This document shows positions 2,866-57,292 of a stretch of 64,000 nucleotides of DNA, one piece after another. Both the position numbers and the translations under genes were made by a program. The notes beneath the pieces were generated by a model. It was not told the DNA's origin and did not search any database. It worked only from the letters and a program-made list of their open reading frames with translations. This stretch comes from a virus (lineage: Duplodnaviria > Heunggongvirae > Uroviricota > Caudoviricetes). Positions within the stretch are counted from its first letter, which is position 1. Every line of letters starts with the position of its first letter. Where the stretch lies: the IMG/VR virus record IMGVR_UViG_3300006153_000005. The stretch is one strand, 5' to 3'.

Positions 2866-3033
2866 TTGCCGGTATTCATTTTCTTGGTCTTTGCGTTTGC
2901 GGCTGTGCTGTGGGTGCTGCTATCTTTCGCATTCAAACCGCTCGGCAAGTTTGTTGGACGGCTAATCAAGGATGCAAAGGACGCAATGGACGAGGAAGAT
3001 CCAAGCGATGAAGACACAGCAAATAAACATTGA
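2866..3033 (+). CDS. small membrane protein (55 aa, TTG start) upstream of SPFH gene
   Basis: one hydrophobic helix then acidic tail; G7 SD-like run upstream; below ORF-track size cutoff. Confidence 0.25.
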   Translation: MPVFIFLVFAFAAVLWVLLSFAFKPLGKFVGRLIKDAKDAMDEEDPSDEDTANKH

Positions 3034-3050
3034 CGGAGGTAAAATACACA

Positions 3051-3983
3051 ATGAGAAGAAAAGGTTTCATCGGAGCAATCGTCCTTGCAATCGCAATCTT
3101 TGGAAGTATCATTTTGGCACTGTTCTGTACCAGTCGTGTTCCGGCAGGGTATGTCGGCGTCGTCTACAACATGAACGGCGGCGTTGACGGTGAGGTTCTT
3201 TCCCAAGGTTGGCATCTGGTCGCACCTACCAAGAAAGTCACGACATACTCAATCGGTATTGAGCAAAGCTATCTGACCTCTGACGAAAAGGGCGACAGCA
3301 AGACCGATGAGAGCTTCAGTATCCCTACTTCTGACGGCAAAACGGTTCGGGTAAATTTGGAGTTCTCCTATCGTTTCGATGAGGCACGAGTGGCTGAAAC
3401 ATTCGTAACATTCAAAGGAAAGTCCGGCGAAGAGATCAAGGACACATTTATCAAGCCCAAGATTATCGCATGGACTCAGGAGGTCAGTGCTAACTATCCT
3501 GTTACAGACATCTTTGGCGATCAGCGTACCACTATCAATGCAGAGCTTGATCTTTACCTCAAGGAGAAGTTCGATAAGTATGGCATTATTATTGACACGG
3601 TGAACTTCACCGACATCTCTGTGGATGCTGAGACTGCTGCGGCGATCCAAAAGAAAGTAACCGCCCAGCAGGAGCTTGAACTTGCGAATATTGAGGCGCA
3701 GACTGCTAAGATTCAGGCCAACAAAGATAAGGAAGTTGCCATGATCCAGGCGGAGAAGGACAAGGAAGCCGCAGAGATTCAAGCGCAGACAGCATTGGTT
3801 AAGGCAAATGCAGATGCTGAGGTGTTGCGGATTGCTGCCGAAGCTGAGGCAGAGGCAAACAGAGTGATTGCCGCCTCCCTTACTTCTGAGTTGATTGAGA
3901 AGATTAAGTATGAGCAGTGGGATGGTAAGATGCCTACCGTATCCGGTTCTGGCTCCATTGTCACCATCCCAGGCGTGAATTGA
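3051..3983 (+). CDS. SPFH/Band-7 (prohibitin-like) membrane protein
   Basis: N-terminal TM helix, SPFH core, Ala/Glu/Gln-rich coiled-coil tail; GGAGG SD. Confidence 0.7.
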   Translation: MRRKGFIGAIVLAIAIFGSIILALFCTSRVPAGYVGVVYNMNGGVDGEVLSQGWHLVAPTKKVTTYSIGIEQSYLTSDEKGDSKTDESFSIPTSDGKTVRVNLEFSYRFDEARVAETFVTFKGKSGEEIKDTFIKPKIIAWTQEVSANYPVTDIFGDQRTTINAELDLYLKEKFDKYGIIIDTVNFTDISVDAETAAAIQKKVTAQQELELANIEAQTAKIQANKDKEVAMIQAEKDKEAAEIQAQTALVKANADAEVLRIAAEAEAEANRVIAASLTSELIEKIKYEQWDGKMPTVSGSGSIVTIPGVN

Positions 3984-3994
3984 GGAGGAACGAT

Positions 3995-4297
3995 ATGGCG
4001 TTCAACAACAAGAAAACCAATACGGCGTCCCGTGACATTTTGCGGGAGAAGCAGCAGGAGGTTGATCGGCTTGCGCAGCAGGCGGATGATGCTGTCGAGC
4101 TTGTGACACGCGCTATCAATCGTCTGGAGCTTATCAATCAACAGATTGACGACGCTATGGGAGAGATTGACACCTATACGGCTGATCTGGCGAAGACGCG
4201 AGAAGCTATGTCCAAACAGCGCCAGGGAAATGCGGCTATCATCAATAATTTCACCAAGCTCCTAAGTACAGAGGACTCCGGCTCAATTTCTGAATAA
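3995..4297 (+). CDS. hypothetical coiled-coil protein
   Basis: ORF with GGAGG SD; heptad-like sequence. Confidence 0.45.
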   Translation: MAFNNKKTNTASRDILREKQQEVDRLAQQADDAVELVTRAINRLELINQQIDDAMGEIDTYTADLAKTREAMSKQRQGNAAIINNFTKLLSTEDSGSISE

Positions 4298-4313
4298 AAG
4301 AGCCATTTGGTTT

Positions 4314-4377
4314 GAGACGCTAACAGCAACTTTAACAAAACAATGAACATTTAATTCATCACGTTAAAATGCGTCTC
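4314..4377 (+). other. hairpin element: 7-bp GC stem GAGACGC/GCGTCTC with 50-nt loop beginning UAACAGCAA
   Basis: perfect inverted repeat; loop starts with the ACAGCAA box shared with tRNA-like inserts. Confidence 0.35.
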
Positions 4378-4402
4378 GTGGTGGTTAGCAACCGCCGAAT
4401 AT

Positions 4403-4492
4403 GGAGTGGTAAGTCTAATGGTAAGACAGCGGTTTGCTAAACCGTCAGTAGCCCGAAAGGGTGTGTGGGTTCGAGTCCCACCCACTCCGCCA
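4403..4492 (+). tRNA. tRNA-Ser (anticodon GCU), CCA encoded
   Basis: acceptor GGAGTGG/CCACTCC, anticodon stem GCGGT/ACCGT with loop UUGCUAA, long variable arm with GAAA loop, T-arm GTGGG-TTCGAGT-CCCAC, discriminator G + CCA. Confidence 0.8.
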
Positions 4493-4580
4493 GCCGTGTG
4501 GTGAGCGGCATTGCGTACATTGCAAACCCCTTTCTTGACGGTGGGAAAAGACCACTACTGCCGTGTAAGTGCGGCAATAT

Positions 4581-4696
4581 GGGAACGTCCGGTGGTCAGG
4601 CCAATCTGTGTAATGGGTGGCGGACACATACAGCAATCTTCATTATAAAAAAGACTTGAAATCTTTTCCTTGGCGGTTCAACTCCGCCAGTTCCCA
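4581..4696 (+). tRNA. tRNA-like gene with ~46-nt insertion; perfect anticodon-like hairpin AAAGA-CUUGAAA-UCUUU (UGA) after the insert; D-arm unclear
   Basis: acceptor GGGAAC(G)/(A)GTTCCC, T-arm GGCGG-TTCAACT-CCGCC; insert contains ACAGCAA. Confidence 0.4.
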
Positions 4697-4969
4697 CAAT
4701 AGCCACCATACTGATTCTTAGGAAGGAGGTACGTGCCATGAATAGAGCACGTGACCAGACCATTTAAGAAGTCGTATCTGTAAATGTAGAACGGCTGCAA
4801 CAAGTGGGGCGATGCCCCACAAGGTTTCAAAATGTGAGCCGCCCACATGAGTGCGGCAGAATCGGAACGCAGTTGAGGAGGCTCTGCAATGAATAAAGCA
4901 CGAGACAAGCCCTAAGTTCGCATCCAAACAGAAATATATTTGACCGGCTCCTTTGAAATATGAAACTAT

Positions 4970-5021
4970 GGGACGCTAACAGCAAGTCATTCTGAAATTT
5001 TAAGAAACAACAATGCGTCCC
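4970..5021 (+). other. hairpin element: stem GGGACGC/GCGTCCC, 38-nt loop beginning UAACAGCAA
   Basis: same architecture as 4314-4377. Confidence 0.35.
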
Positions 5022-5027
5022 GAATAT

Positions 5028-5141
5028 GCGGAGATAGCTCAGTCGGTAGAGCGATGGTATAAAATGTGGAACATTTCGTTCTCACTAACAGCAAGGTTAA
5101 ATGGAGGCTATGTGTCGTAGGTTCGAGTCCTACTCTCCGCA
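5028..5141 (+). tRNA. tRNA-like gene with 41-nt insertion in anticodon loop (possible small intron); identity unresolved (UGG if splice after U33)
   Basis: acceptor GCGGAGA/TCTCCGC, D-arm GCTC-AGTCGGTA-GAGC, anticodon stem ATGGT/GCTAT enclosing 48 nt, T-arm GTAGG-TTCGAGT-CCTAC; insert carries TCACTAACAGCAAGG. Confidence 0.5.
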
Positions 5142-5354
5142 TCAGACTCCTTTGTTTTCCGGTATCCTTTCGAGTCGCTAAGAAACAAGCCGGCGTGGTT
5201 GCGGACGAAAAGGCGCAAGTGGATTCCGTTCCCACCGAGAAGCGGATAGGGGCAGGGCTTTGGGTACGCTTATGTCTGTTCTGAAATCAAGCGCCAGATA
5301 ATCAGCCCAAATATCTTGAACTGGGTTGTGACAGCTTGGAAAGACAAGCAAAAC

Positions 5355-5469
5355 GTCAGGGTAGCTCAGTGGATAGAGCACGTATCAATGCGTATCTTAT
5401 GAAACGCGCACAGCAATGTTTTAAGGAATTTTAATCCCGTGGTCGTGGGTTCGAGTCCCACCCCTGGCA
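5355..5469 (+). tRNA. tRNA-like gene with ~43-nt insertion; anticodon arm not resolvable
   Basis: acceptor GTCAGGG/CCCTGGC (one G-U), D-arm GCTC-AGTGGATA-GAGC, T-arm GTGGG-TTCGAGT-CCCAC; insert carries ACAGCAA. Confidence 0.45.
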
Positions 5470-5474
5470 TCTAT

Positions 5475-5592
5475 GCGGTAGTGGTGAAGTGGTTAAACAC
5501 AGCGGTCAATAAAATGTGAAATGTTATAGTTTCACTAACAGCAAGGTAAAAAGCCAAACCGCCAATCGTAGGTTCAAATCCTACCTGCCGTA
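5475..5592 (+). tRNA. tRNA-like gene with 44-nt insertion inside anticodon loop
   Basis: acceptor GCGGTAG/CTGCCGT (two G-U), anticodon stem GCGGT/ACCGC enclosing 51 nt, T-arm GTAGG-TTCAAAT-CCTAC; insert carries TCACTAACAGCAAGG identical to 5081-5095. Confidence 0.5.
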
Positions 5593-5743
5593 CAATATAG
5601 GGGAACGTAAACCATCGTCTCCTCCCACCCTATTTAACGATAAAATGGTGACAGCTCGGAGAGACGGGCACATCTCTGAACACGTACAGCAAAAGTAGTT
5701 AAGGTGTTCCAGGTATCTCAAAATTTATTAGGAGGTAAGAGAA

Positions 5744-7303
5744 ATGAGCAACTTTATGGATGGTGTCAAGGATACACTCGTCAATGGATCTGACAATGTA
5801 TCCGTAACCGAAAATGGAGCAGTTGGCTACCGTACCACGGGGCGTTCCCTGCTGGATCTCAACTTTGCGGTCGCATCTCTCCGCAATGCTTCGGAGCAGG
5901 ATATCTCCAAGCGTTTCATCAAGGCGTTCTTTGAGGATAAGGTGACGGCTATGAAGTGGCTATTCTTCGCCCGCGATGTGCGTGGTGGACTTGGTGAGCG
6001 GCGGCTGTTCCGTGCCTGCATGGTGCCGATGGCGAATGACTTCCCTGAGTATGTCGCCCCGGTTTTATCTCTGGTGCCTGAGTATGGCCGCTGGGACGAT
6101 CTCTGGTGTCTGCTGGATACTCCGTTGGCCGACAAGGTGATTGAGTTGGTAGGCACTCAACTCCACGATGATATGCGTGGCTACAAGGAGAAGAAGCCTG
6201 TCTCTCTGCTCGCAAAGTGGATGCCCAGATGTAAGACATCTTCCAAGCAGACCCGCAGATATGGACAGCTTTTGCGGAGTGGTCTGAATATGACGGAGCG
6301 TGATTATCAGCACACGCTGGCGGATTTGTCCCGCTATCTGGTCGTGGTTGAGCAGCAGATGTCTTCTCAGACGTGGGATGGAATTGACTATCAGCGTGTC
6401 CCCTCCCGTGCTAACCTGATCTACAACGATGCTTTTCTCCGCCATGACACTGAGCGGCGGCGTGAGTTTTTGGAGCGTGTGGAGAGCGGCGACGCCAAGA
6501 TTAACGCCGGCACGCTGTTCCCTCACGATATCGTGAACAAGTACCGCCGTACAAACAGTGTAGATGCTACGCTGGAGGCTCTTTGGAGTAACTTGCCGGA
6601 TACCGTGCAGGGTTGCGGCAACACGATTGTTGTCCAGGACGACAGCGGGAGCATGACATGGGTAACGCTCCCCGGTAGCACGGCCCGCCCCTTGGAGGTA
6701 GCGAACGCACTCGCAATCTATTTTGCCGAGCGTTCTTCTGGTCAGTTCAAAGATCAGTATATCACTTTCTCTGATCGCCCAGAGCTGATTGACTTGTCAA
6801 ATGGCAAGAACCTCTATGAGCGGTTGAGAATCGTCCATGAGTGCCACGCTGGAGCAAACACCAATGTGGAGGCCGTCTTTGACCTCATCTTGAACACGGC
6901 AATCTCCAAGCACATGGATCAGAGCGAACTTCCCGCCAATGTGCTTATCATTTCCGACATGGAGTTTGACTCCTGCGCCAGCTGTGGAGCGCCGTCCAGA
7001 GATCGCTGGGGGTACAACACAAGCAGACCGAGCGCCAGACTGTTCGACGAGATCAAGCGGAAGTACGAACAGGCTGGATACAAGATGCCTCGTTTGGTGT
7101 TCTGGAATGTTGCCAGCCGTAGCGAGACGATTCCTGTCAAGGAGAACGATATGGGCGTTGCTCTGGTCAGCGGCTTCTCTGTCAATATCGCCAAGATGGT
7201 GATGAGCGGCAAGCTCGATCCCTACGAGTGCTTGCTTGAGACTTTGAACACGGAGCGATACCAGCCCATTGAGGACGCATTGCGCCATGTTGTTGGCGAA
7301 TAA
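5744..7303 (+). CDS. vWA-domain protein with N-terminal TROVE-like region (Ro60/Rsr-like RNA-binding protein, putative)
   Basis: MIDAS motif 'VVQDDSGSM'; 'LFPHDIV' resembles Ro60 'IHPFHIL' preceding the vWA domain; sits directly after tRNA-like RNAs. Confidence 0.45.
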   Translation: MSNFMDGVKDTLVNGSDNVSVTENGAVGYRTTGRSLLDLNFAVASLRNASEQDISKRFIKAFFEDKVTAMKWLFFARDVRGGLGERRLFRACMVPMANDFPEYVAPVLSLVPEYGRWDDLWCLLDTPLADKVIELVGTQLHDDMRGYKEKKPVSLLAKWMPRCKTSSKQTRRYGQLLRSGLNMTERDYQHTLADLSRYLVVVEQQMSSQTWDGIDYQRVPSRANLIYNDAFLRHDTERRREFLERVESGDAKINAGTLFPHDIVNKYRRTNSVDATLEALWSNLPDTVQGCGNTIVVQDDSGSMTWVTLPGSTARPLEVANALAIYFAERSSGQFKDQYITFSDRPELIDLSNGKNLYERLRIVHECHAGANTNVEAVFDLILNTAISKHMDQSELPANVLIISDMEFDSCASCGAPSRDRWGYNTSRPSARLFDEIKRKYEQAGYKMPRLVFWNVASRSETIPVKENDMGVALVSGFSVNIAKMVMSGKLDPYECLLETLNTERYQPIEDALRHVVGE

Positions 7304-7394
7304 CGACGAACGAAATCAAAGGAGGCTCAGAACGATAGTATAGCGCACTGGCTGTCTACGGTCTGAGCCTCTTTTACAGAGAGGAGTGCAATTC

Positions 7395-8513
7395 GTGATT
7401 TACTTAGACCACGCAGCAACGACACCTATGTTTCCAGAGGTTCTGGAGGCTATGCTTCCCTGGTTCCAACCAGATCATGTTGGCAACGCAAGCAGTATCC
7501 ACACGCAAGGAGTAAACGCTTTTCGAGCCATTGAAGATGCTCGTGAAAAGGTTGCCAAAATGATTAACGCCGATGTCTCTGAAATTTTCTTTACGTCAGG
7601 CGGTACAGAATCTAATAACACATTCGCCAGCCATATCCTTGGCGAGAGGGTCATCACAACTCCCTTGGAGCATCATTCCGTTACGCATCCGCTTGAGAGA
7701 TGGGCACATGAGGTGTCCTATGTAAAGAATTTGCCCGATGGTAGCGTGGATTTGGAAGATTTGAGCCGCCTGTTAAATCTCTGTTGTCACAAAGCGGTTT
7801 CTGTAATGTGGATCAACAATGAGATTGGTACAATCAATCCGGTTGAGGAAATTGCAGAGCTTTGTAAAAAGCACAGTATACTCCTTCATGTGGACGCTGT
7901 GCAGGCGGCAGGCCATATACCTATCGACGTGAAGAAGTGCGGAGTGGATTTCCTCTCCATGTCCGGGCACAAGTTTGGCGCACCGTTTGGTGTCGGAGTG
8001 TTTTATGTGCGTAGTGGAGTCCAGAAAGAATCTCTGATTAGCGGAGGAGGTCAGGAGCACGGTATAAGAGCCGGCACCTATAATGTGCCTGGTATCGTGG
8101 GGCTTGGTAAGGCCGCTGAAATCATCACAAGTCGGCTCCCCAGACAAATCGAAAAGTGGAACACGCAGGAATATGTTTTGCTGAAAGAACTGGACAAGGT
8201 GATGCCAGGAGAATACAAGCAAAACGCCGCTGCAAAAAGGACACACAACATTATCAGTCTGACCATTCCCAGTGTAAATAGCGAGGCTCTGTTGCTTTTG
8301 CTGGATCAGAAAGAAATTTATCTTTCTGCTGGTTCCGCTTGCAGTGCATCGGATGCAAGTTTGTCTCATGTCCTGAAAGGAATTGGGTTATCAGATGAAG
8401 ATGCTGCATCAACCGTTCGTATTTCGTTGGGATATGAAAACACGGCGGACGAAATGGTGGAAACGGCCCAGGCCATTGCAGAGGTGGCACACAAGCTAAA
8501 GGCTATGTATTGA
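7395..8513 (+). CDS. cysteine desulfurase (NifS/IscS-like, aminotransferase class V)
   Basis: PLP-lysine motif 'SMSGHKFGAP', 'HVDAVQAAG'; GTG start with GGAGG SD. Confidence 0.7.
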   Translation: MIYLDHAATTPMFPEVLEAMLPWFQPDHVGNASSIHTQGVNAFRAIEDAREKVAKMINADVSEIFFTSGGTESNNTFASHILGERVITTPLEHHSVTHPLERWAHEVSYVKNLPDGSVDLEDLSRLLNLCCHKAVSVMWINNEIGTINPVEEIAELCKKHSILLHVDAVQAAGHIPIDVKKCGVDFLSMSGHKFGAPFGVGVFYVRSGVQKESLISGGGQEHGIRAGTYNVPGIVGLGKAAEIITSRLPRQIEKWNTQEYVLLKELDKVMPGEYKQNAAAKRTHNIISLTIPSVNSEALLLLLDQKEIYLSAGSACSASDASLSHVLKGIGLSDEDAASTVRISLGYENTADEMVETAQAIAEVAHKLKAMY

Positions 8514-57069: not shown

Positions 57070-57292
57070 TTGATATTTGGCGAATAGTAGGGCGGCATAT
57101 CCTACATCTCAGGTTCCATTGTTGGAGTGTTGGGAGCCATTTCCAACCTCATTCGTCAAACAAAATTGTACTTTTATTCAAACTGCTACACATCTATCTC
57201 GTTGCTTTCTGGAGAGAAAAATACTGTTATTTCAGTTTTGTTGGTCAAAGCGATAATAAAACTCATATCACCCATATGTCTTCACCTCTTTC

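What the first reader, a model, noticed from the sequence alone, without database searches (positions are those of the whole stretch)
4300..5700. tRNA cluster in which four of five genes carry 41-47 nt insertions sharing an ACAGCAA box; the same box sits in two stand-alone hairpins
Only tRNA-Ser(GCU) (4403-4492) is canonical. Four further genes (4581-4696, 5028-5141, 5355-5469, 5475-5592) have textbook acceptor stems, D-arms and T-arms, but carry ~45 extra nt between the D-arm and variable loop.

In two of them (5028 and 5475 genes) the insert lies inside an intact anticodon stem (ATGGT/GCTAT, GCGGT/ACCGC), like a 41-44 nt intron. That is far too short for a group I intron, and bacteria lack BHB splicing.

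All inserts contain ACAGCAA; two share the 15-mer TCACTAACAGCAAGG. The same UAACAGCAA begins the loops of two GC-clamped hairpins (4314-4377, 4970-5021). An eighth copy (5677-5690) sits just before the downstream Ro60-like gene.

Seven copies of a 7-mer in 1.4 kb is far beyond chance. Possibilities: a new class of short tRNA introns or processing signals, tRNA-like (Y-RNA-like) regulatory RNAs, or decoy/anti-nuclease tRNAs.
Basis: seen in the sequence. Interest (0 to 1): 0.75.

Follow-up and report, generated by a model that had tools for sequence, protein, structure and literature searches.

The report
Phage Ro-like protein's tRNA-mimic RNAs
The odd "tRNA genes with inserts" are most likely not intron-containing tRNAs but a family of small phage RNAs that mimic tRNAs or anticodon arms. 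All carry one conserved tag (a helix followed by ACAGCAA) that is probably the docking site for the Ro60-like protein encoded next door, a pairing found in hundreds of phages and, as far as I could search, not yet described.

Summary
There are seven ACAGCAA copies, all on the + strand, in 4323-5692 (Poisson P about 3e-9). Four lie inside tRNA-shaped genes, two in stand-alone hairpins and one in the 5' leader of the downstream gene.

The box always follows a covarying helix by two nucleotides and is predicted to be unpaired.

Helix+box modules cluster on the gene's strand beside its homologs in 71 IMG/VR loci. They also occur beside homologs in Staphylococcus, Enterococcus, Listeria, Mycobacterium, Felixounavirus and KVP40 phages. 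Searching by the RNA pattern alone retrieves the gene in 80/120 viral and 91/120 genome loci.

The same tRNA-like body occurs both unpermuted (window) and circularly permuted (L049, LeBron), the latter like YrlA. Anticodons vary among orthologs.

Best reading: a Y-RNA-like ribonucleoprotein with a new recognition box that displays tRNA or anticodon-loop mimics, probably in tRNA damage and repair conflicts. The intron reading is not supported. Protein binding and function are inferred, not shown.

The parts
4313..4378 (+). Stand-alone box RNA S1. P1 helix is UGAGACGC (4313-4320) / GCGUCUCG (4371-4378), followed by UA and the ACAGCAA box (4323-4329). P2 is UUUAAC (4331-4336) / GUUAAA (4363-4368). 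The apical anticodon-arm-like hairpin AUGAA CAUUUAA UUCAU is at 4343-4359.
   Evidence: (the MFE fold leaves the box unpaired as a 5' bulge between P1 and P2). Homologous modules in other loci.
4403..4492 (+). Canonical tRNA-Ser(GCU) with encoded CCA. It is a neighbour in the same RNA gene array, not a box RNA.
   Evidence: ARAGORN; Rfam tRNA 57.7 bits.
4581..4707 (+). tRNA-like box RNA, type A.
- 6-bp acceptor stem and a reduced D region.
- Box hairpin UGUGU[AAUGGGUGGCGG]ACACA at 4607-4628; box at 4630-4636.
- Intact anticodon-arm mimic at 4649-4667 (loop CUUGAAA).
- T arm at 4672-4688; acceptor 3' strand ends at 4696.
- 3' trailer GCCACC (4702-4707) pairs with hairpin-loop GGUGGC (4616-4621).
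   Evidence: The trailer-loop pairing is kept with compensatory changes in 14/14 orthologs across 8 sequence variants.
4969..5022 (+). Stand-alone box RNA S2. P1 helix is UGGGACGC (4969-4976) / GCGUCCCG (5015-5022); box at 4979-4985.
   Evidence: (z = -2.79).
5028..5141 (+). tRNA-like box RNA, type B. It has acceptor, D arm, anticodon stem AUGGU (5054-5058) / GCUAU (5107-5111) and T arm. Box hairpin (5066-5085) and box (5088-5094) sit inside the anticodon loop, 5' of an anticodon-like segment.
   Evidence: Rfam tRNA 51.6 bits with 48 nt in the loop. Orthologs show the hairpin covarying by eye. Coordinates.
5355..5469 (+). tRNA-like box RNA, type C. It is a full cloverleaf with the box hairpin (5390-5407) and box (5410-5416) inserted at the D-arm / anticodon-stem hinge. 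An intact anticodon arm follows at 5425-5437 (loop AUUUUAA, 'UUU').
   Evidence: Rfam tRNA 43.4 bits. In the 16-ortholog alignment A2, RNAalifold finds 18 of 25 pairs with compensatory changes, including the inserted hairpin. The anticodon differs among orthologs.
5475..5592 (+). tRNA-like box RNA, type D (tRNA-Gly-like). Anticodon stem is GCGGU (5502-5506) / ACCGC (5558-5562). Box hairpin (5516-5535) and box (5538-5544) lie in the anticodon loop. The 3' half of the loop, GCCAA (5553-5557), is kept, but there is no U33.
   Evidence: Rfam tRNA 47.2 bits; fold z = -3.36; orthologs. A circularly permuted counterpart is at L049 3465-3597.
5678..5709 (+). Minimal box module in the 5' leader of the Ro60-like gene: GAACAC (5678-5683), GU, ACAGCAA (5686-5692), 11 nt, GUGUUC (5704-5709). 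It ends about 20 nt upstream of the Shine-Dalgarno sequence AGGAGG (5730-5735).
   Evidence: The same arrangement is conserved in L002, L006, L012 and L014. 56 of 71 related loci have a box within 160 nt of the start codon.
5744..7303 (+). Ro60-like protein gene (519 aa). It carries Pfam DUF2828 + DUF7788 (vWA-like, with DxSxS MIDAS residues invariant) and matches PHROG 850 'RNA-binding protein'. It is the proposed partner of the box.
8575..9986 (+). Context gene: ATP-dependent RNA ligase, split over two overlapping ORFs (8575-9591 and 9528-9986).
   Evidence: PHROG 968 matches both parts; NCBIfam RNA_lig_DRB0094 is weak; Pfam PHA02142 OB domain.
10920..11858 (+). Context gene: polynucleotide-kinase-like P-loop kinase (Pnkp-type N-terminal domain).
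   Evidence: Pfam AAA_33/KTI12; PHROG 505; NCBIfam bacter_Pnkp is partial.

Best explanation
The seven elements are one family of small phage RNAs built from two modules.

Module 1 is constant. It is a helix whose sequence covaries freely, then two nucleotides, then single-stranded ACAGCAA, often followed by UUUA and a second helix. I infer that this module is the docking site for the Ro60-fold protein encoded at 5744-7303.

Module 2 is variable and mimics tRNA. It can be a bare anticodon-arm-like hairpin (stand-alone RNAs), or a whole tRNA body into which module 1 is inserted at the D/anticodon hinge or in the anticodon loop. In related phages it is a circularly permuted tRNA body with a closed acceptor stem, as in YrlA.

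The particles would therefore be Y-RNA-like ribonucleoproteins. The protein ring would be held next to a displayed anticodon loop or tRNA shape, which engages enzymes that recognise tRNAs.

Given the flanking RNA ligase and polynucleotide kinase, I commit to a role in the phage's handling of tRNA damage. The RNA would tether the Ro-like ring to tRNA-directed repair or processing enzymes or to broken tRNAs, by analogy with Ro60-Y RNA-PNPase and the rsr-yrlA-rtcB operon.

The copy in the gene's own leader would give feedback control of the protein's synthesis.

Shown here: the motif, its structure context, its two-way genomic linkage to the gene, the permutation relationship and the protein fold.

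Inferred: physical binding, expression and processing, autoregulation and the repair role.
For: Structure of the module:
- In 47 non-redundant stand-alone modules from phages of Clostridia, Bacilli, Actinobacteria and Proteobacteria, the 8-bp helix is 91.8% paired. It has 113 double-change cells against 28.2 in shuffles, and a covariation score of 0.843 against 0.256 (0/500 shuffles reach it). Slid controls are 30-50% paired.
- The box itself is invariant and unpaired in MFE folds.
- The same C-R-C-N-N-ACAGCAA-N-U-U-U-A preference holds for terminal-helix and local-hairpin versions.

Linkage from protein to RNA:
- 71 loci found by protein similarity (down to about 40% identity) carry on average 4.18 boxes on the gene's strand in the 1.5 kb upstream.
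- The opposite strand has 4 boxes in total, and a downstream control has 0.13 per locus.
- 56 of 71 loci have a box within 160 nt of the start codon.

Distant phages (31-38% protein identity) keep the module beside the gene:
- Staphylococcus vB_SepS_BE02: three copies.
- Enterococcus VRE9_3.
- KVP40: a box next to the ribosome-binding site with only a weak 6-bp helix.
- Mycobacteriophage LeBron.
- Felixounavirus adrianh: four copies among its tRNAs.
- Listeria LMTA-34: three copies.

Linkage from RNA to protein:
- The pattern AAGACACNNACAGCAAN{20,50}GTGTCTTG has a rough chance expectation below 1 (my estimate, not computed by a tool). It gives at least 120 viral and at least 120 genome loci.
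- 80/120 viral and 91/120 genome loci hold a DUF2828-family gene in the stored flank.
- The gene is on the same strand in 79/80 and 90/91, at a median distance of 117 and 222 nt.

Protein fold:

tRNA mimicry and permutation:
- Rfam tRNA scores are 43-52 bits.
- The type C cloverleaf plus inserted hairpin covaries.
- L049 3465-3597 is the permuted form of type D.
- LeBron has a sub-threshold YrlA match (39.8 bits) whose closing stem carries GCAGCAA.

Not ordinary tRNAs:
- The anticodon changes among orthologs of one body: UUU/GUU/UGU/GCU in type C and UGA/GCA/GUA/GGA in type A.
- The type A trailer pairs with the insert.

Gene context:
- RNA ligase and a Pnkp-like kinase lie in the window.
- An RtcB 'tRNA splicing ligase' and an HD hydrolase lie near the Listeria phage gene, and a phosphoesterase near the Enterococcus one.
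- LeBron encodes an RNA ligase and a polynucleotide kinase elsewhere in its genome (PMC13148394).
Against: - No binding, expression or RNA-end data exist. Protein-box recognition rests entirely on genomic co-occurrence.
- The protein does not match Pfam TROVE, and a sequence profile finds no Ro60 in the PDB. Similarity is at fold level only, from a model with mean pLDDT 79.7.
- The box is unlike the known Ro60 site (GGUCCGA / GNCGAAN0-1G / CGAA), so the Y-RNA analogy could be superficial.
- 29-40 of 120 pattern-retrieved loci show no gene in the stored flank. Some have several kb on both sides, so modules also occur away from the gene.
- The 3' strands in the helix test were chosen by complementarity, which inflates pairedness. 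The mismatched-partner control is itself high (12.6% with >= 7 bp) because helices resemble each other.
- Repair genes are not consistently adjacent; the KVP40 locus has none nearby.
- A repair scaffold does not obviously need bare anticodon-arm mimics, which fit a decoy role better.
Confidence: 0.6

Rival explanations
1. The RNP is a decoy or bait. The displayed anticodon arms and tRNA bodies would be competitive substrates or inhibitors for host anticodon nucleases (PrrC/RloC-, colicin E5/D-, PARIS- or PtuAB-type). The Ro-like protein would stabilise them or sense their cleavage. This shares the binding model of the best explanation but differs in what the RNP does.
For: - Many stand-alone modules carry only a 4-6 bp stem with a canonical CU-NNN-AA loop, 13-18 nt after the box.
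- Within one conserved tRNA body the 'anticodon' switches among UUU, GUU, UGU and GCU, while U33, U36, A37 and A38 stay invariant. This looks like diversification of a displayed target.
- There are several copies per locus.
- UUU(Lys), GUU(Asn) and GUA(Tyr) are known nuclease targets (from my own knowledge of PrrC, colicin E5 and Retron-Eco7 PtuAB, not checked here).
Against: - No nuclease or defence data exist.
- Several modules, including S2 and the leader copy, have no convincing anticodon-arm mimic.
- Types B and D display an interrupted loop that a nuclease might not recognise.
- The mimicked loops would lack the modifications many anticodon nucleases need, unless they are modified.
- The census also counts T arms, so its enrichment figure (112 observed against 30 expected) overstates true anticodon-arm mimics.
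Confidence: 0.2
2. The inserts are a new class of short tRNA introns. A protein endonuclease would remove them, and the neighbouring kinase and RNA ligase would reseal the exons to yield functional tRNAs. ACAGCAA would be the splice signal.
For: - Three genes exceed the Rfam tRNA threshold once a 48-55 nt loop is allowed.
- ARAGORN calls them only when introns are allowed.
- An RNA ligase and a Pnkp-like kinase, a heal-and-seal pair, are encoded 3-6 kb downstream.
Against: - The same helix+box occurs in stand-alone hairpins, in the mRNA leader and in circularly permuted tRNA-like RNAs, which have no exons to join.
- Insert sites differ (hinge versus loop), and ARAGORN's intron sites are 31/32, 33/34 and 38/39, with identities such as Stop(tta) and Tyr(ata).
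- In type D orthologs the nucleotide before the anticodon-like triplet is not U, and no consistent cut restores a 7-nt loop.
- The type A insert pairs with the 3' trailer.
- Orthologs change anticodon on a constant body.
- There is no Rfam intron or ribozyme hit, even at E <= 10.
Confidence: 0.05
3. The tRNA-shaped members are working phage tRNAs that carry an extra protein-binding arm. The Ro-like protein would escort or protect them, or mark them as phage-owned. The stand-alone hairpins would be regulators of the same protein.
For: - Types A and C keep complete acceptor, T arm and a canonical 7-nt anticodon loop. The insert projects from the hinge, much as a long variable arm projects from class II tRNAs.
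- The family lives in tRNA-rich phages and among tRNA genes.
Against: - Types B and D have no intact anticodon loop.
- Type A lacks a normal D arm and uses its 3' trailer in structure.
- Anticodon identity is not conserved on a conserved body, including 8-nt loops in L014 and L052. This is not expected of tRNAs charged by anticodon-reading synthetases.
- None of them encodes CCA, whereas the adjacent real tRNA-Ser does.
Confidence: 0.07
4. The box is a cis-acting processing or regulatory signal read by something other than the DUF2828 protein, such as a host RNase or another phage factor. Its linkage to the gene would only reflect a shared operon of RNA genes.
For: - The elements lie in a tRNA-type array that must be processed.
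- No + strand terminator-like site was found between 3900 and about 7150, so co-transcription with the gene is possible.
- Some modules lie far from any DUF2828 gene.
Against: - Hosts range from Mycobacterium to Vibrio, Campylobacter and Clostridia, yet the 7-mer is invariant. That fits a phage-borne reader better than diverse host RNases.
- The only gene consistently next to the module, on the same strand and typically 100-250 nt away, is the DUF2828 gene. Other neighbours differ from phage to phage.
Confidence: 0.08

Closest known systems
Bacterial Y RNAs of the YrlA type with Ro60/Rsr (Chen et al. 2014, PMC4201824; Rfam RF02553)
   Same: - Small RNAs encoded within a few kb of, and on the same strand as, a ring-shaped HEAT + vWA protein.
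- Modular build: a protein-binding stem plus a tRNA-like domain.
- The permuted members (L049, LeBron) have the YrlA layout: closed acceptor, T and D arms, and the protein-binding stem in place of the anticodon arm.
- The conserved single-stranded motif sits on the 5' strand just above the basal helix.
- Linked to RNA ligase and repair genes.
   Different: - The protein is Pfam DUF2828/DUF7788, not TROVE.
- The recognition motif is ACAGCAA, not GNCGAAN0-1G or GGUCCGA.
- The window RNAs score 16.4 bits against a YrlA gathering score of 69.
- Many members are unpermuted tRNAs with the binding module inserted, or carry only an anticodon-arm mimic. YrlA lacks an anticodon-arm mimic.
- There are several paralogous RNAs per locus, plus a copy in the mRNA leader.
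Thermus phage phiLo Ro60 with Yrl1/Yrl2 (Hu et al. 2025, PMC12135203; PDB 9KOP, 9L5Y)
   Same: - A phage-encoded Ro60-fold protein with small RNAs encoded just upstream of its gene.
   Different: - phiLo Ro60 is a TROVE protein that binds a CGAA motif in a stem-bulge-stem RNA.
- The paper describes no tRNA mimicry there.
- Its proposed role is to hijack host PNPase.
tRNA introns: bacterial group I introns in anticodon loops and archaeal/eukaryal bulge-helix-bulge introns
   Same: Extra sequence interrupts a tRNA gene in or near the anticodon arm. An RNA ligase and a kinase are encoded nearby, as in protein-catalysed splicing.
   Different: - The insert is 41-48 nt, with no group I core and no Rfam hit.
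- Positions are variable and non-canonical.
- The same element also exists outside tRNA bodies.
- The insert sequence and structure, not the exon junctions, are what is conserved.
Phage T4 Pnkp/Rnl1 repair of anticodon-nuclease-cleaved tRNA-Lys (established knowledge; cited in PMC13148394)
   Same: A phage-encoded kinase plus RNA ligase lie in the same genome region as tRNA-type genes. A role in tRNA-directed host-phage conflict is plausible.
   Different: T4 repair needs no Ro-like protein or tRNA-mimic RNA. No link between the window's ligase/kinase and the box RNAs has been shown.
Circularly permuted tRNA genes (Cyanidioschyzon merolae) and the tmRNA tRNA-like domain (from my own knowledge)
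   Same: The same tRNA body is found in two circular permutations. Type A has a reduced D region and a T arm/acceptor end reminiscent of tRNA-like domains.
   Different: In those systems the permuted precursors are re-joined into normal tRNAs, and tmRNA carries an mRNA module. Neither feature is seen here.

Membership tests
Y RNA / Ro60 RNP | RNA encoded close to, and on the same strand as, the gene of its Ro60-type partner | tested here: met
   All 7 window copies lie 52-1421 nt upstream on the same strand. In 71 related loci there are 297 boxes on the + strand against 4 on the - strand in the upstream 1.5 kb. The reverse look-up gives the same strand in 79/80 and 90/91 loci.
Y RNA / Ro60 RNP | Partner protein is a Ro60 ortholog (TROVE HEAT-repeat ring + vWA/MIDAS) | tested here: inconclusive
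Y RNA / Ro60 RNP | Conserved Ro-binding motif GGUCCGA / GNCGAAN0-1G (CGAA) in the terminal stem | tested here: not met
   The conserved element is NN-ACAGCAA after the helix. The canonical motif is as described in PMC4201824 and PMC12135203.
Y RNA / Ro60 RNP | Terminal stem formed by the 5' and 3' ends, plus a second functional module | tested here: met
   Met for S1, S2, the leader copy and 166 of 241 instances. In the four tRNA-shaped genes the stem is a closed hairpin and the RNA ends are at the acceptor stem, a permuted arrangement.
Y RNA / Ro60 RNP | Physical association of RNA and protein | not testable with these tools
   Needs RIP/CLIP or a gel-shift assay.
YrlA (Rfam RF02553) | Covariance-model score at or above the gathering score (69 bits) | tested here: not met
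   The best window match is 16.4 bits, E 4.1, spanning two adjacent genes. The LeBron RNA scores 39.8 bits.
tRNA (Rfam RF00005 / ARAGORN) | Cloverleaf scoring above the family threshold | tested here: met
   51.6, 47.2 and 43.4 bits against a gathering score of 29 for 5028, 5475 and 5355. 4581 scores only 20.3 bits.
tRNA (Rfam RF00005 / ARAGORN) | Continuous 7-nt anticodon loop on a 5-bp stem, and an anticodon conserved among orthologs | tested here: not met
   ARAGORN without introns rejects all four. The loops of 5028 and 5475 hold 48-50 nt. The anticodon varies among type C and type A orthologs.
Group I tRNA intron | Group I catalytic core (Rfam Intron_gpI), usually more than 200 nt, in the anticodon loop | tested here: not met
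   No such hit in 4200-5800, even at E <= 10. The inserts are 41-48 nt.
Protein-spliced (BHB-type) tRNA intron | A consistent splice position with restoration of a canonical anticodon loop | tested here: not met
   ARAGORN intron mode gives positions 31/32, 33/34 and 38/39 and identities Stop(tta), Tyr(ata) and Glu(ctc). Type D orthologs lack U33 on either side. The bulge-helix-bulge geometry itself was not modelled.
Proposed ACAGCAA-box RNA family (defined here) | A covarying helix of at least 6 bp ending 2 nt before an unpaired ACAGCAA, on the strand of a nearby DUF2828-family gene | tested here: met
   All seven window copies meet it: three with a terminal helix and four with a local hairpin.

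The most novel reading that the evidence does not exclude
A pan-phage ribonucleoprotein system, found from mycobacteriophages to Felix O1-, P100-, Twort- and KVP40-like phages. A Ro-like ring would be loaded through a universal ACAGCAA box with interchangeable 'displays' of anticodon loops or whole tRNA shapes. These displays would act as baits or decoys for host anticodon nucleases, or as sensors that trigger repair, with the displayed anticodon diversifying in an arms race. It would be an RNA-based counter-defence of a kind not yet described.
Probability: 0.2. Interest if true: 0.9.

Novelty: new variant of a known kind. Interest (0 to 1): 0.78.

Why it matters
Proteins of this family (PHROG 850) are found in 711 deposited phage genomes, including well-studied laboratory and therapeutic phages. 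They are annotated at best as 'RNA-binding' or 'Ro-like', with no known ligand.

A universal seven-base box with a defined structural context gives that ligand a concrete, testable identity. It defines what is probably a new RNA family missing from Rfam 15. It would also extend the Ro60/Y-RNA paradigm to a second protein lineage with a different recognition code.

The coexistence of unpermuted, permuted and anticodon-arm-only versions shows how tRNA genes are recycled into protein-tethering RNAs.

Practically, tRNA predictors run in intron mode will mis-annotate these genes. ARAGORN calls them Stop, Tyr and Glu tRNAs.

If the RNPs act in tRNA repair or as nuclease decoys, they belong to the fast-moving field of tRNA-targeting anti-phage defence and phage counter-defence.

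Tried and rejected
- Structure prediction from the single sequence gave an unusable model (pLDDT 42). It was redone with a 53-sequence alignment.
- Sequence searches of the protein and of its profile against PDB chains found no Ro60. Only the fold comparison did.
- Scanning IMG/VR for the exact 15-mer TCACTAACAGCAAGG gave 47 loci. By my rough estimate that is about what chance allows, and apart from the window's own phage they were not examined further. A structured pattern replaced it.
- The mismatched-partner control for the terminal helix was less clean than hoped, because helices of different copies resemble each other (AAGRCRC). It still gave 56% against 12.6% with >= 7 bp.
- The same problem affected the control for the type A loop-trailer pairing. 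There I rely on the eight compensated sequence variants.
- Rfam at permissive thresholds gave only chance-level hits beside tRNA (plastid UTR families, sX4, YrlA at E 4).
- The three ACAGCAA copies at 62.7-62.9 kb (- strand) lie in the coding region of the DGR target gene and have no helix context. I dismissed them as chance.
- Promoter and terminator scans were uninformative, at shuffle level.
- Literature searches for DUF2828, Ro-like phage proteins and tRNA-like phage RNAs found no description of these RNAs. The Sim et al. 2020 review and the supplementary tables of Chen et al. 2014 were not available.
- I did not build a covariance model. The 10-110 nt variable interior makes a single model of the split module unreliable.


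Full report
**1. What is in the sequence**

The region 4300-5700 holds one ordinary tRNA, tRNA-Ser(GCU) at 4403-4492 (ARAGORN; Rfam 57.7 bits).

It also holds four tRNA-shaped genes.
- 5028-5141, 5355-5469 and 5475-5592 pass the Rfam tRNA threshold (51.6, 43.4 and 47.2 bits against 29). The model has to skip 48-55 nt where the anticodon loop should be.
- 4581-4696 reaches only 20.3 bits over its 3' two-thirds.

ACAGCAA occurs seven times between 4323 and 5692, always on the + strand. From the rest of the window, 0.21 copies are expected, so P is about 3e-9.

There are three corrections.
- The 'eighth' copy is the seventh, at 5686-5692.
- In 4581 and 5355 the insert precedes an intact anticodon arm rather than interrupting it.
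- 4581 is not a textbook tRNA.

**2. Anatomy of the repeated element**

Every copy has the same context: a helix, two nucleotides, then ACAGCAA. In S1 (4313-4378), S2 (4969-5022) and the small module at 5678-5709, the helix is formed by the two ends of the element. In the four tRNA-shaped genes it is a closed hairpin just 5' of the box.

Energy minimisation leaves the box unpaired. In S1 it forms a 10-nt bulge on the 5' strand between the basal helix and a second helix, topped by a 5-bp stem with a 7-nt loop.

I collected 241 distinct instances from related loci. Of these, 166 have the terminal-helix form, 60 have the hairpin form and 15 are unclassified. Both forms share the consensus (A)AG-R-C-R-C-N-N-ACAGCAA-N-U-U-U-A.

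I aligned 47 non-redundant terminal-helix modules from very different phages.
- The helix is 91.8% paired.
- It has 113 cells changed on both sides, against 28.2 in shuffles.
- Its covariation score is 0.843 against 0.256 (0/500 shuffles reach it).
- Pairing collapses to 30-50% when the partner strand is slid.

One caveat applies. I located the 3' strands by complementarity, so pairedness is inflated. The diversity of compensated helices is not: 54 different 7-mers occur among instances with at least 7 bp.

**3. The four tRNA-shaped genes are four different paralog families, each with orthologs in related phages**

*Type C (5355).* This is a complete cloverleaf with the hairpin and box inserted at the hinge between the D arm and the anticodon stem. 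In 16 orthologs RNAalifold recovers the acceptor, D arm, inserted hairpin, anticodon arm and T arm, with compensatory changes in 18 of 25 pairs.

*Type A (4581).*
- It has a 6-bp acceptor, a reduced D region, the hairpin and box, a perfect anticodon arm, and a T arm.
- Six nucleotides of the hairpin loop (4616-4621, GGUGGC) are complementary to the 3' trailer five nucleotides past the discriminator (4702-4707, GCCACC).
- This pairing is kept in 14/14 orthologs through eight different sequence variants.
- The functional RNA therefore extends beyond the 'tRNA' 3' end.

*Types B (5028) and D (5475).* These carry the hairpin and box inside the anticodon loop, 5' of an anticodon-like triplet: NGG-type in B, and GCC/UCC/ACC followed by AA in D.

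*Type D also exists in circularly permuted form.* At L049 3465-3597 the RNA starts with the basal strand AAGACUC. The order then runs as follows:
- UA-ACAGCAA;
- the 3' half of the anticodon arm;
- the T arm;
- an acceptor stem closed by a loop;
- the D arm;
- the 5' half of the anticodon stem;
- the closing strand GAGUCUUG.

The same tRNA body thus carries the same module either as a closed insert (window) or as the open terminal stem (L049). The latter is the architecture of YrlA.

**4. These are not ordinary or intron-containing tRNAs**

- ARAGORN accepts them only in intron mode. It then reports Glu(ctc), Stop(tta) and Tyr(ata), with 'introns' at 33/34, 31/32 and 38/39.
- Among orthologs of the conserved type C body, loop positions 33, 36, 37 and 38 are invariant. 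Positions 34-35 vary, giving UUU, GUU, UGU and GCU, and two orthologs have 8-nt loops.
- Type A orthologs show UGA, GCA, GUA and GGA.
- Type D orthologs have no U at position 33 on either side of the insert.
- No intron or ribozyme family of Rfam 15 matches, even at E <= 10.
- The same module occurs where there is nothing to splice: in stand-alone hairpins, in an mRNA leader and in permuted RNAs.

**5. The neighbouring gene**

ORF 5744-7303 carries Pfam DUF2828 and DUF7788. It belongs to PHROG 850, 'RNA-binding protein'.

An AlphaFold2 model built on 53 homologs (pLDDT 79.7) was compared with solved structures.
- Foldseek ranks the same three first over the full length.
- The MIDAS residues D299, S301 and S303 are invariant in the family.

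At sequence level there is no TROVE match, in this protein or in five distant relatives. A profile search finds no Ro60 in the PDB either. 'Ro60-like' is therefore justified as a fold statement, not as orthology.

**6. Linkage of box and gene**

*Protein to RNA.* In 71 IMG/VR loci retrieved by protein similarity, the 1.5 kb upstream of the gene holds on average 4.18 boxes on the gene's strand. The other strand holds 4 in total, and a downstream control holds 0.13 per locus. 56 of 71 loci have a box within 160 nt of the start codon.

*Distant phages.* The family is present in 711 GenBank phage records. In six distant representatives (31-38% identity) the module again sits beside the gene:
- three copies just downstream in Staphylococcus phage vB_SepS_BE02;
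- one upstream in Enterococcus phage VRE9_3;
- one box next to the ribosome-binding site in KVP40, with only a weak 6-bp helix;
- three upstream in Listeria phage LMTA-34;
- four interspersed with tRNAs in Felixounavirus adrianh;
- two, plus a GCAGCAA variant, downstream of LeBron gp53.

The LeBron variant closes a permuted tRNA mimic that the YrlA model recognises at 39.8 bits, below its threshold.

*RNA to protein.* The pattern AAGACACNNACAGCAAN{20,50}GTGTCTTG has a rough chance expectation below one match (my estimate).
- It returns at least 120 viral loci. 80 of these hold a DUF2828-family gene in the stored flank, 79 on the same strand, at a median distance of 117 nt.
- It returns at least 120 genome loci, mostly Bacillota MAGs. 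91 hold the gene, 90 on the same strand, at a median distance of 222 nt.

Other neighbours differ from phage to phage. The DUF2828 gene is the only constant one.

**7. Interpretation**

The simplest account is that helix + NN + ACAGCAA is the recognition site of the Ro60-fold protein, and that the RNAs are functional analogues of Y RNAs.

The known system has the same logic. Ro60 binds a conserved motif on the 5' strand of a terminal stem: GGUCCGA in animals, GNCGAAN0-1G in bacterial YrlA and CGAA in phage phiLo. A second module then tethers other factors, and in YrlA that module is a tRNA mimic.

Three things differ here: the protein lineage, the box, and the range of second modules. Those modules run from anticodon arm only, through whole unpermuted tRNA, to permuted tRNA.

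In every architecture the box lies immediately 5' of an anticodon loop or loop half. The bound protein would therefore sit next to a displayed anticodon loop.

The gene neighbourhood points to tRNA damage and repair as the arena.
- The window has a cysteine desulfurase, an RNA ligase, a weak nucleotidyltransferase match, a Pnkp-like kinase and a PAPS-reductase-like protein.
- The Listeria phage has RtcB and an HD hydrolase nearby.
- The Enterococcus phage has a phosphoesterase nearby.
- LeBron encodes a ligase and a kinase elsewhere.

I commit to a tether or scaffold role in tRNA repair and quality control, with feedback through the leader copy. I rate the whole package at about 0.6: about 0.75 for 'the box is the protein's binding site', and about 0.3 for the specific scaffold role. 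A decoy or bait role is the main functional rival. It is favoured by the bare anticodon-arm mimics and by the switching anticodons.

**8. Novelty**

Rfam 15 has no family for these RNAs.

Within the searchable literature I found canonical Ro60/Y RNA work, including phage YrlA next to TROVE proteins (mycobacteriophage ET08 and 21 others) and phiLo. I also found annotations of LeBron gp53 as 'Ro-like RNA-binding protein'. I found nothing on the RNA partners of the DUF2828 lineage or on an ACAGCAA box.

Subscription-only papers are not covered, so prior description cannot be excluded.

Conceptually this is a new variant of a known kind (a Ro/Y-RNA-type RNP with tRNA mimicry) rather than a new category.

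**9. Limits**

- Nothing here shows transcription, RNA ends, binding or phenotype.
- The fold assignment rests on a predicted model.
- The helix statistics use partner strands found by complementarity.
- About a quarter to a third of pattern-retrieved loci show no gene within the stored flank.

Noticed in passing
window 5334-5349 and 5654-5669; L002 2890-2935 and 3779-3800, and similar sites in L004-L041: A second conserved hairpin sits 5-30 nt upstream of several box-RNA genes and of the leader module. It is preceded by GAC(A/G) and has a 5-bp stem with a GAAAGA or GAGAGA hexaloop. The stems covary (GCUUG/CAAGC, GCCCG/CGGGC, GCCUG/CAGGC, GCCGG/CCGGC), and tandem pairs precede type A genes in related loci. 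It may be a processing signal or a second protein site.
   Followed up: partly
window 4738-4767 and 4889-4915: Two tiny ORFs, each with its own GGAGG ribosome-binding site, lie between the box RNAs. They encode MNRARDQTI and MNKARDKP. The second is conserved in L014 as MNKARDKPW.
   Followed up: partly
window 5242-5349: This spacer between the type B and type C genes is 83% identical to L002-group loci (3691-3798), where it lies between types C and D. It contains no ACAGCAA box and may be another structured RNA.
   Followed up: no
window 8575-9591 and 9528-9986: The RNA ligase (PHROG 968) is split between two overlapping ORFs that match the N- and C-terminal parts of the family profile. The cause could be a frameshift, a sequencing error or a genuine split.
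   Followed up: no
window 7386-8513 and 12398-13330: A NifS/IscS/DndA-like cysteine desulfurase lies immediately after the Ro-like gene, and a PAPS-reductase-like (PP-loop type) protein lies further on. Together they suggest sulfur transfer to RNA or DNA. All matches are below the equivalog cut-offs.
   Followed up: partly
window 3030-3983: An SPFH/Band-7 protein gene lies just upstream of the RNA array (Pfam E 7e-27). From memory, Band-7 proteins have been linked to RNA-repair operons in comparative-genomics work. I could not retrieve that paper.
   Followed up: no
window 61000-63300, minus strand: This is a diversity-generating retroelement. The RT-2 RNA is at 61133-61350 (154.7 bits). An adenine-rich template repeat at about 61380-61500 matches a variable repeat at about 62440-62560, at the 3' end of a large gene. 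The reverse-transcriptase gene presumably starts near 61140.
   Followed up: partly
window 57079-57157, minus strand: A skipping-rope RNA motif (Rfam RF02924, 69.4 bits).
   Followed up: no
alignment A2 columns 92-98; type A anticodon arms listed: Within each paralog family the displayed loop keeps particular positions. Type C keeps U33, U36, A37 and A38; type A keeps A36-A37-A38. These match the determinants I remember for t6A37 and i6A37 modification, respectively. Positions 34-35 vary. This hints that loop-reading enzymes are the target.
   Followed up: partly
L131 122-714 (contig IMGVR_UViG_GVMAG-M-3300017963-53_000001): Three helix+box modules lie within 600 nt on a contig labelled as a giant-virus MAG. 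No DUF2828-family gene is present in the 11-kb stored flank.
   Followed up: no
L127 (mycobacteriophage LeBron) 4020-4165: This is a permuted tRNA mimic whose closing stem carries the variant box GCAGCAA. It scores 39.8 bits against YrlA, below the threshold of 69. LeBron gp53 was reported as toxic when overexpressed in M. smegmatis (PMC13148394).
   Followed up: partly
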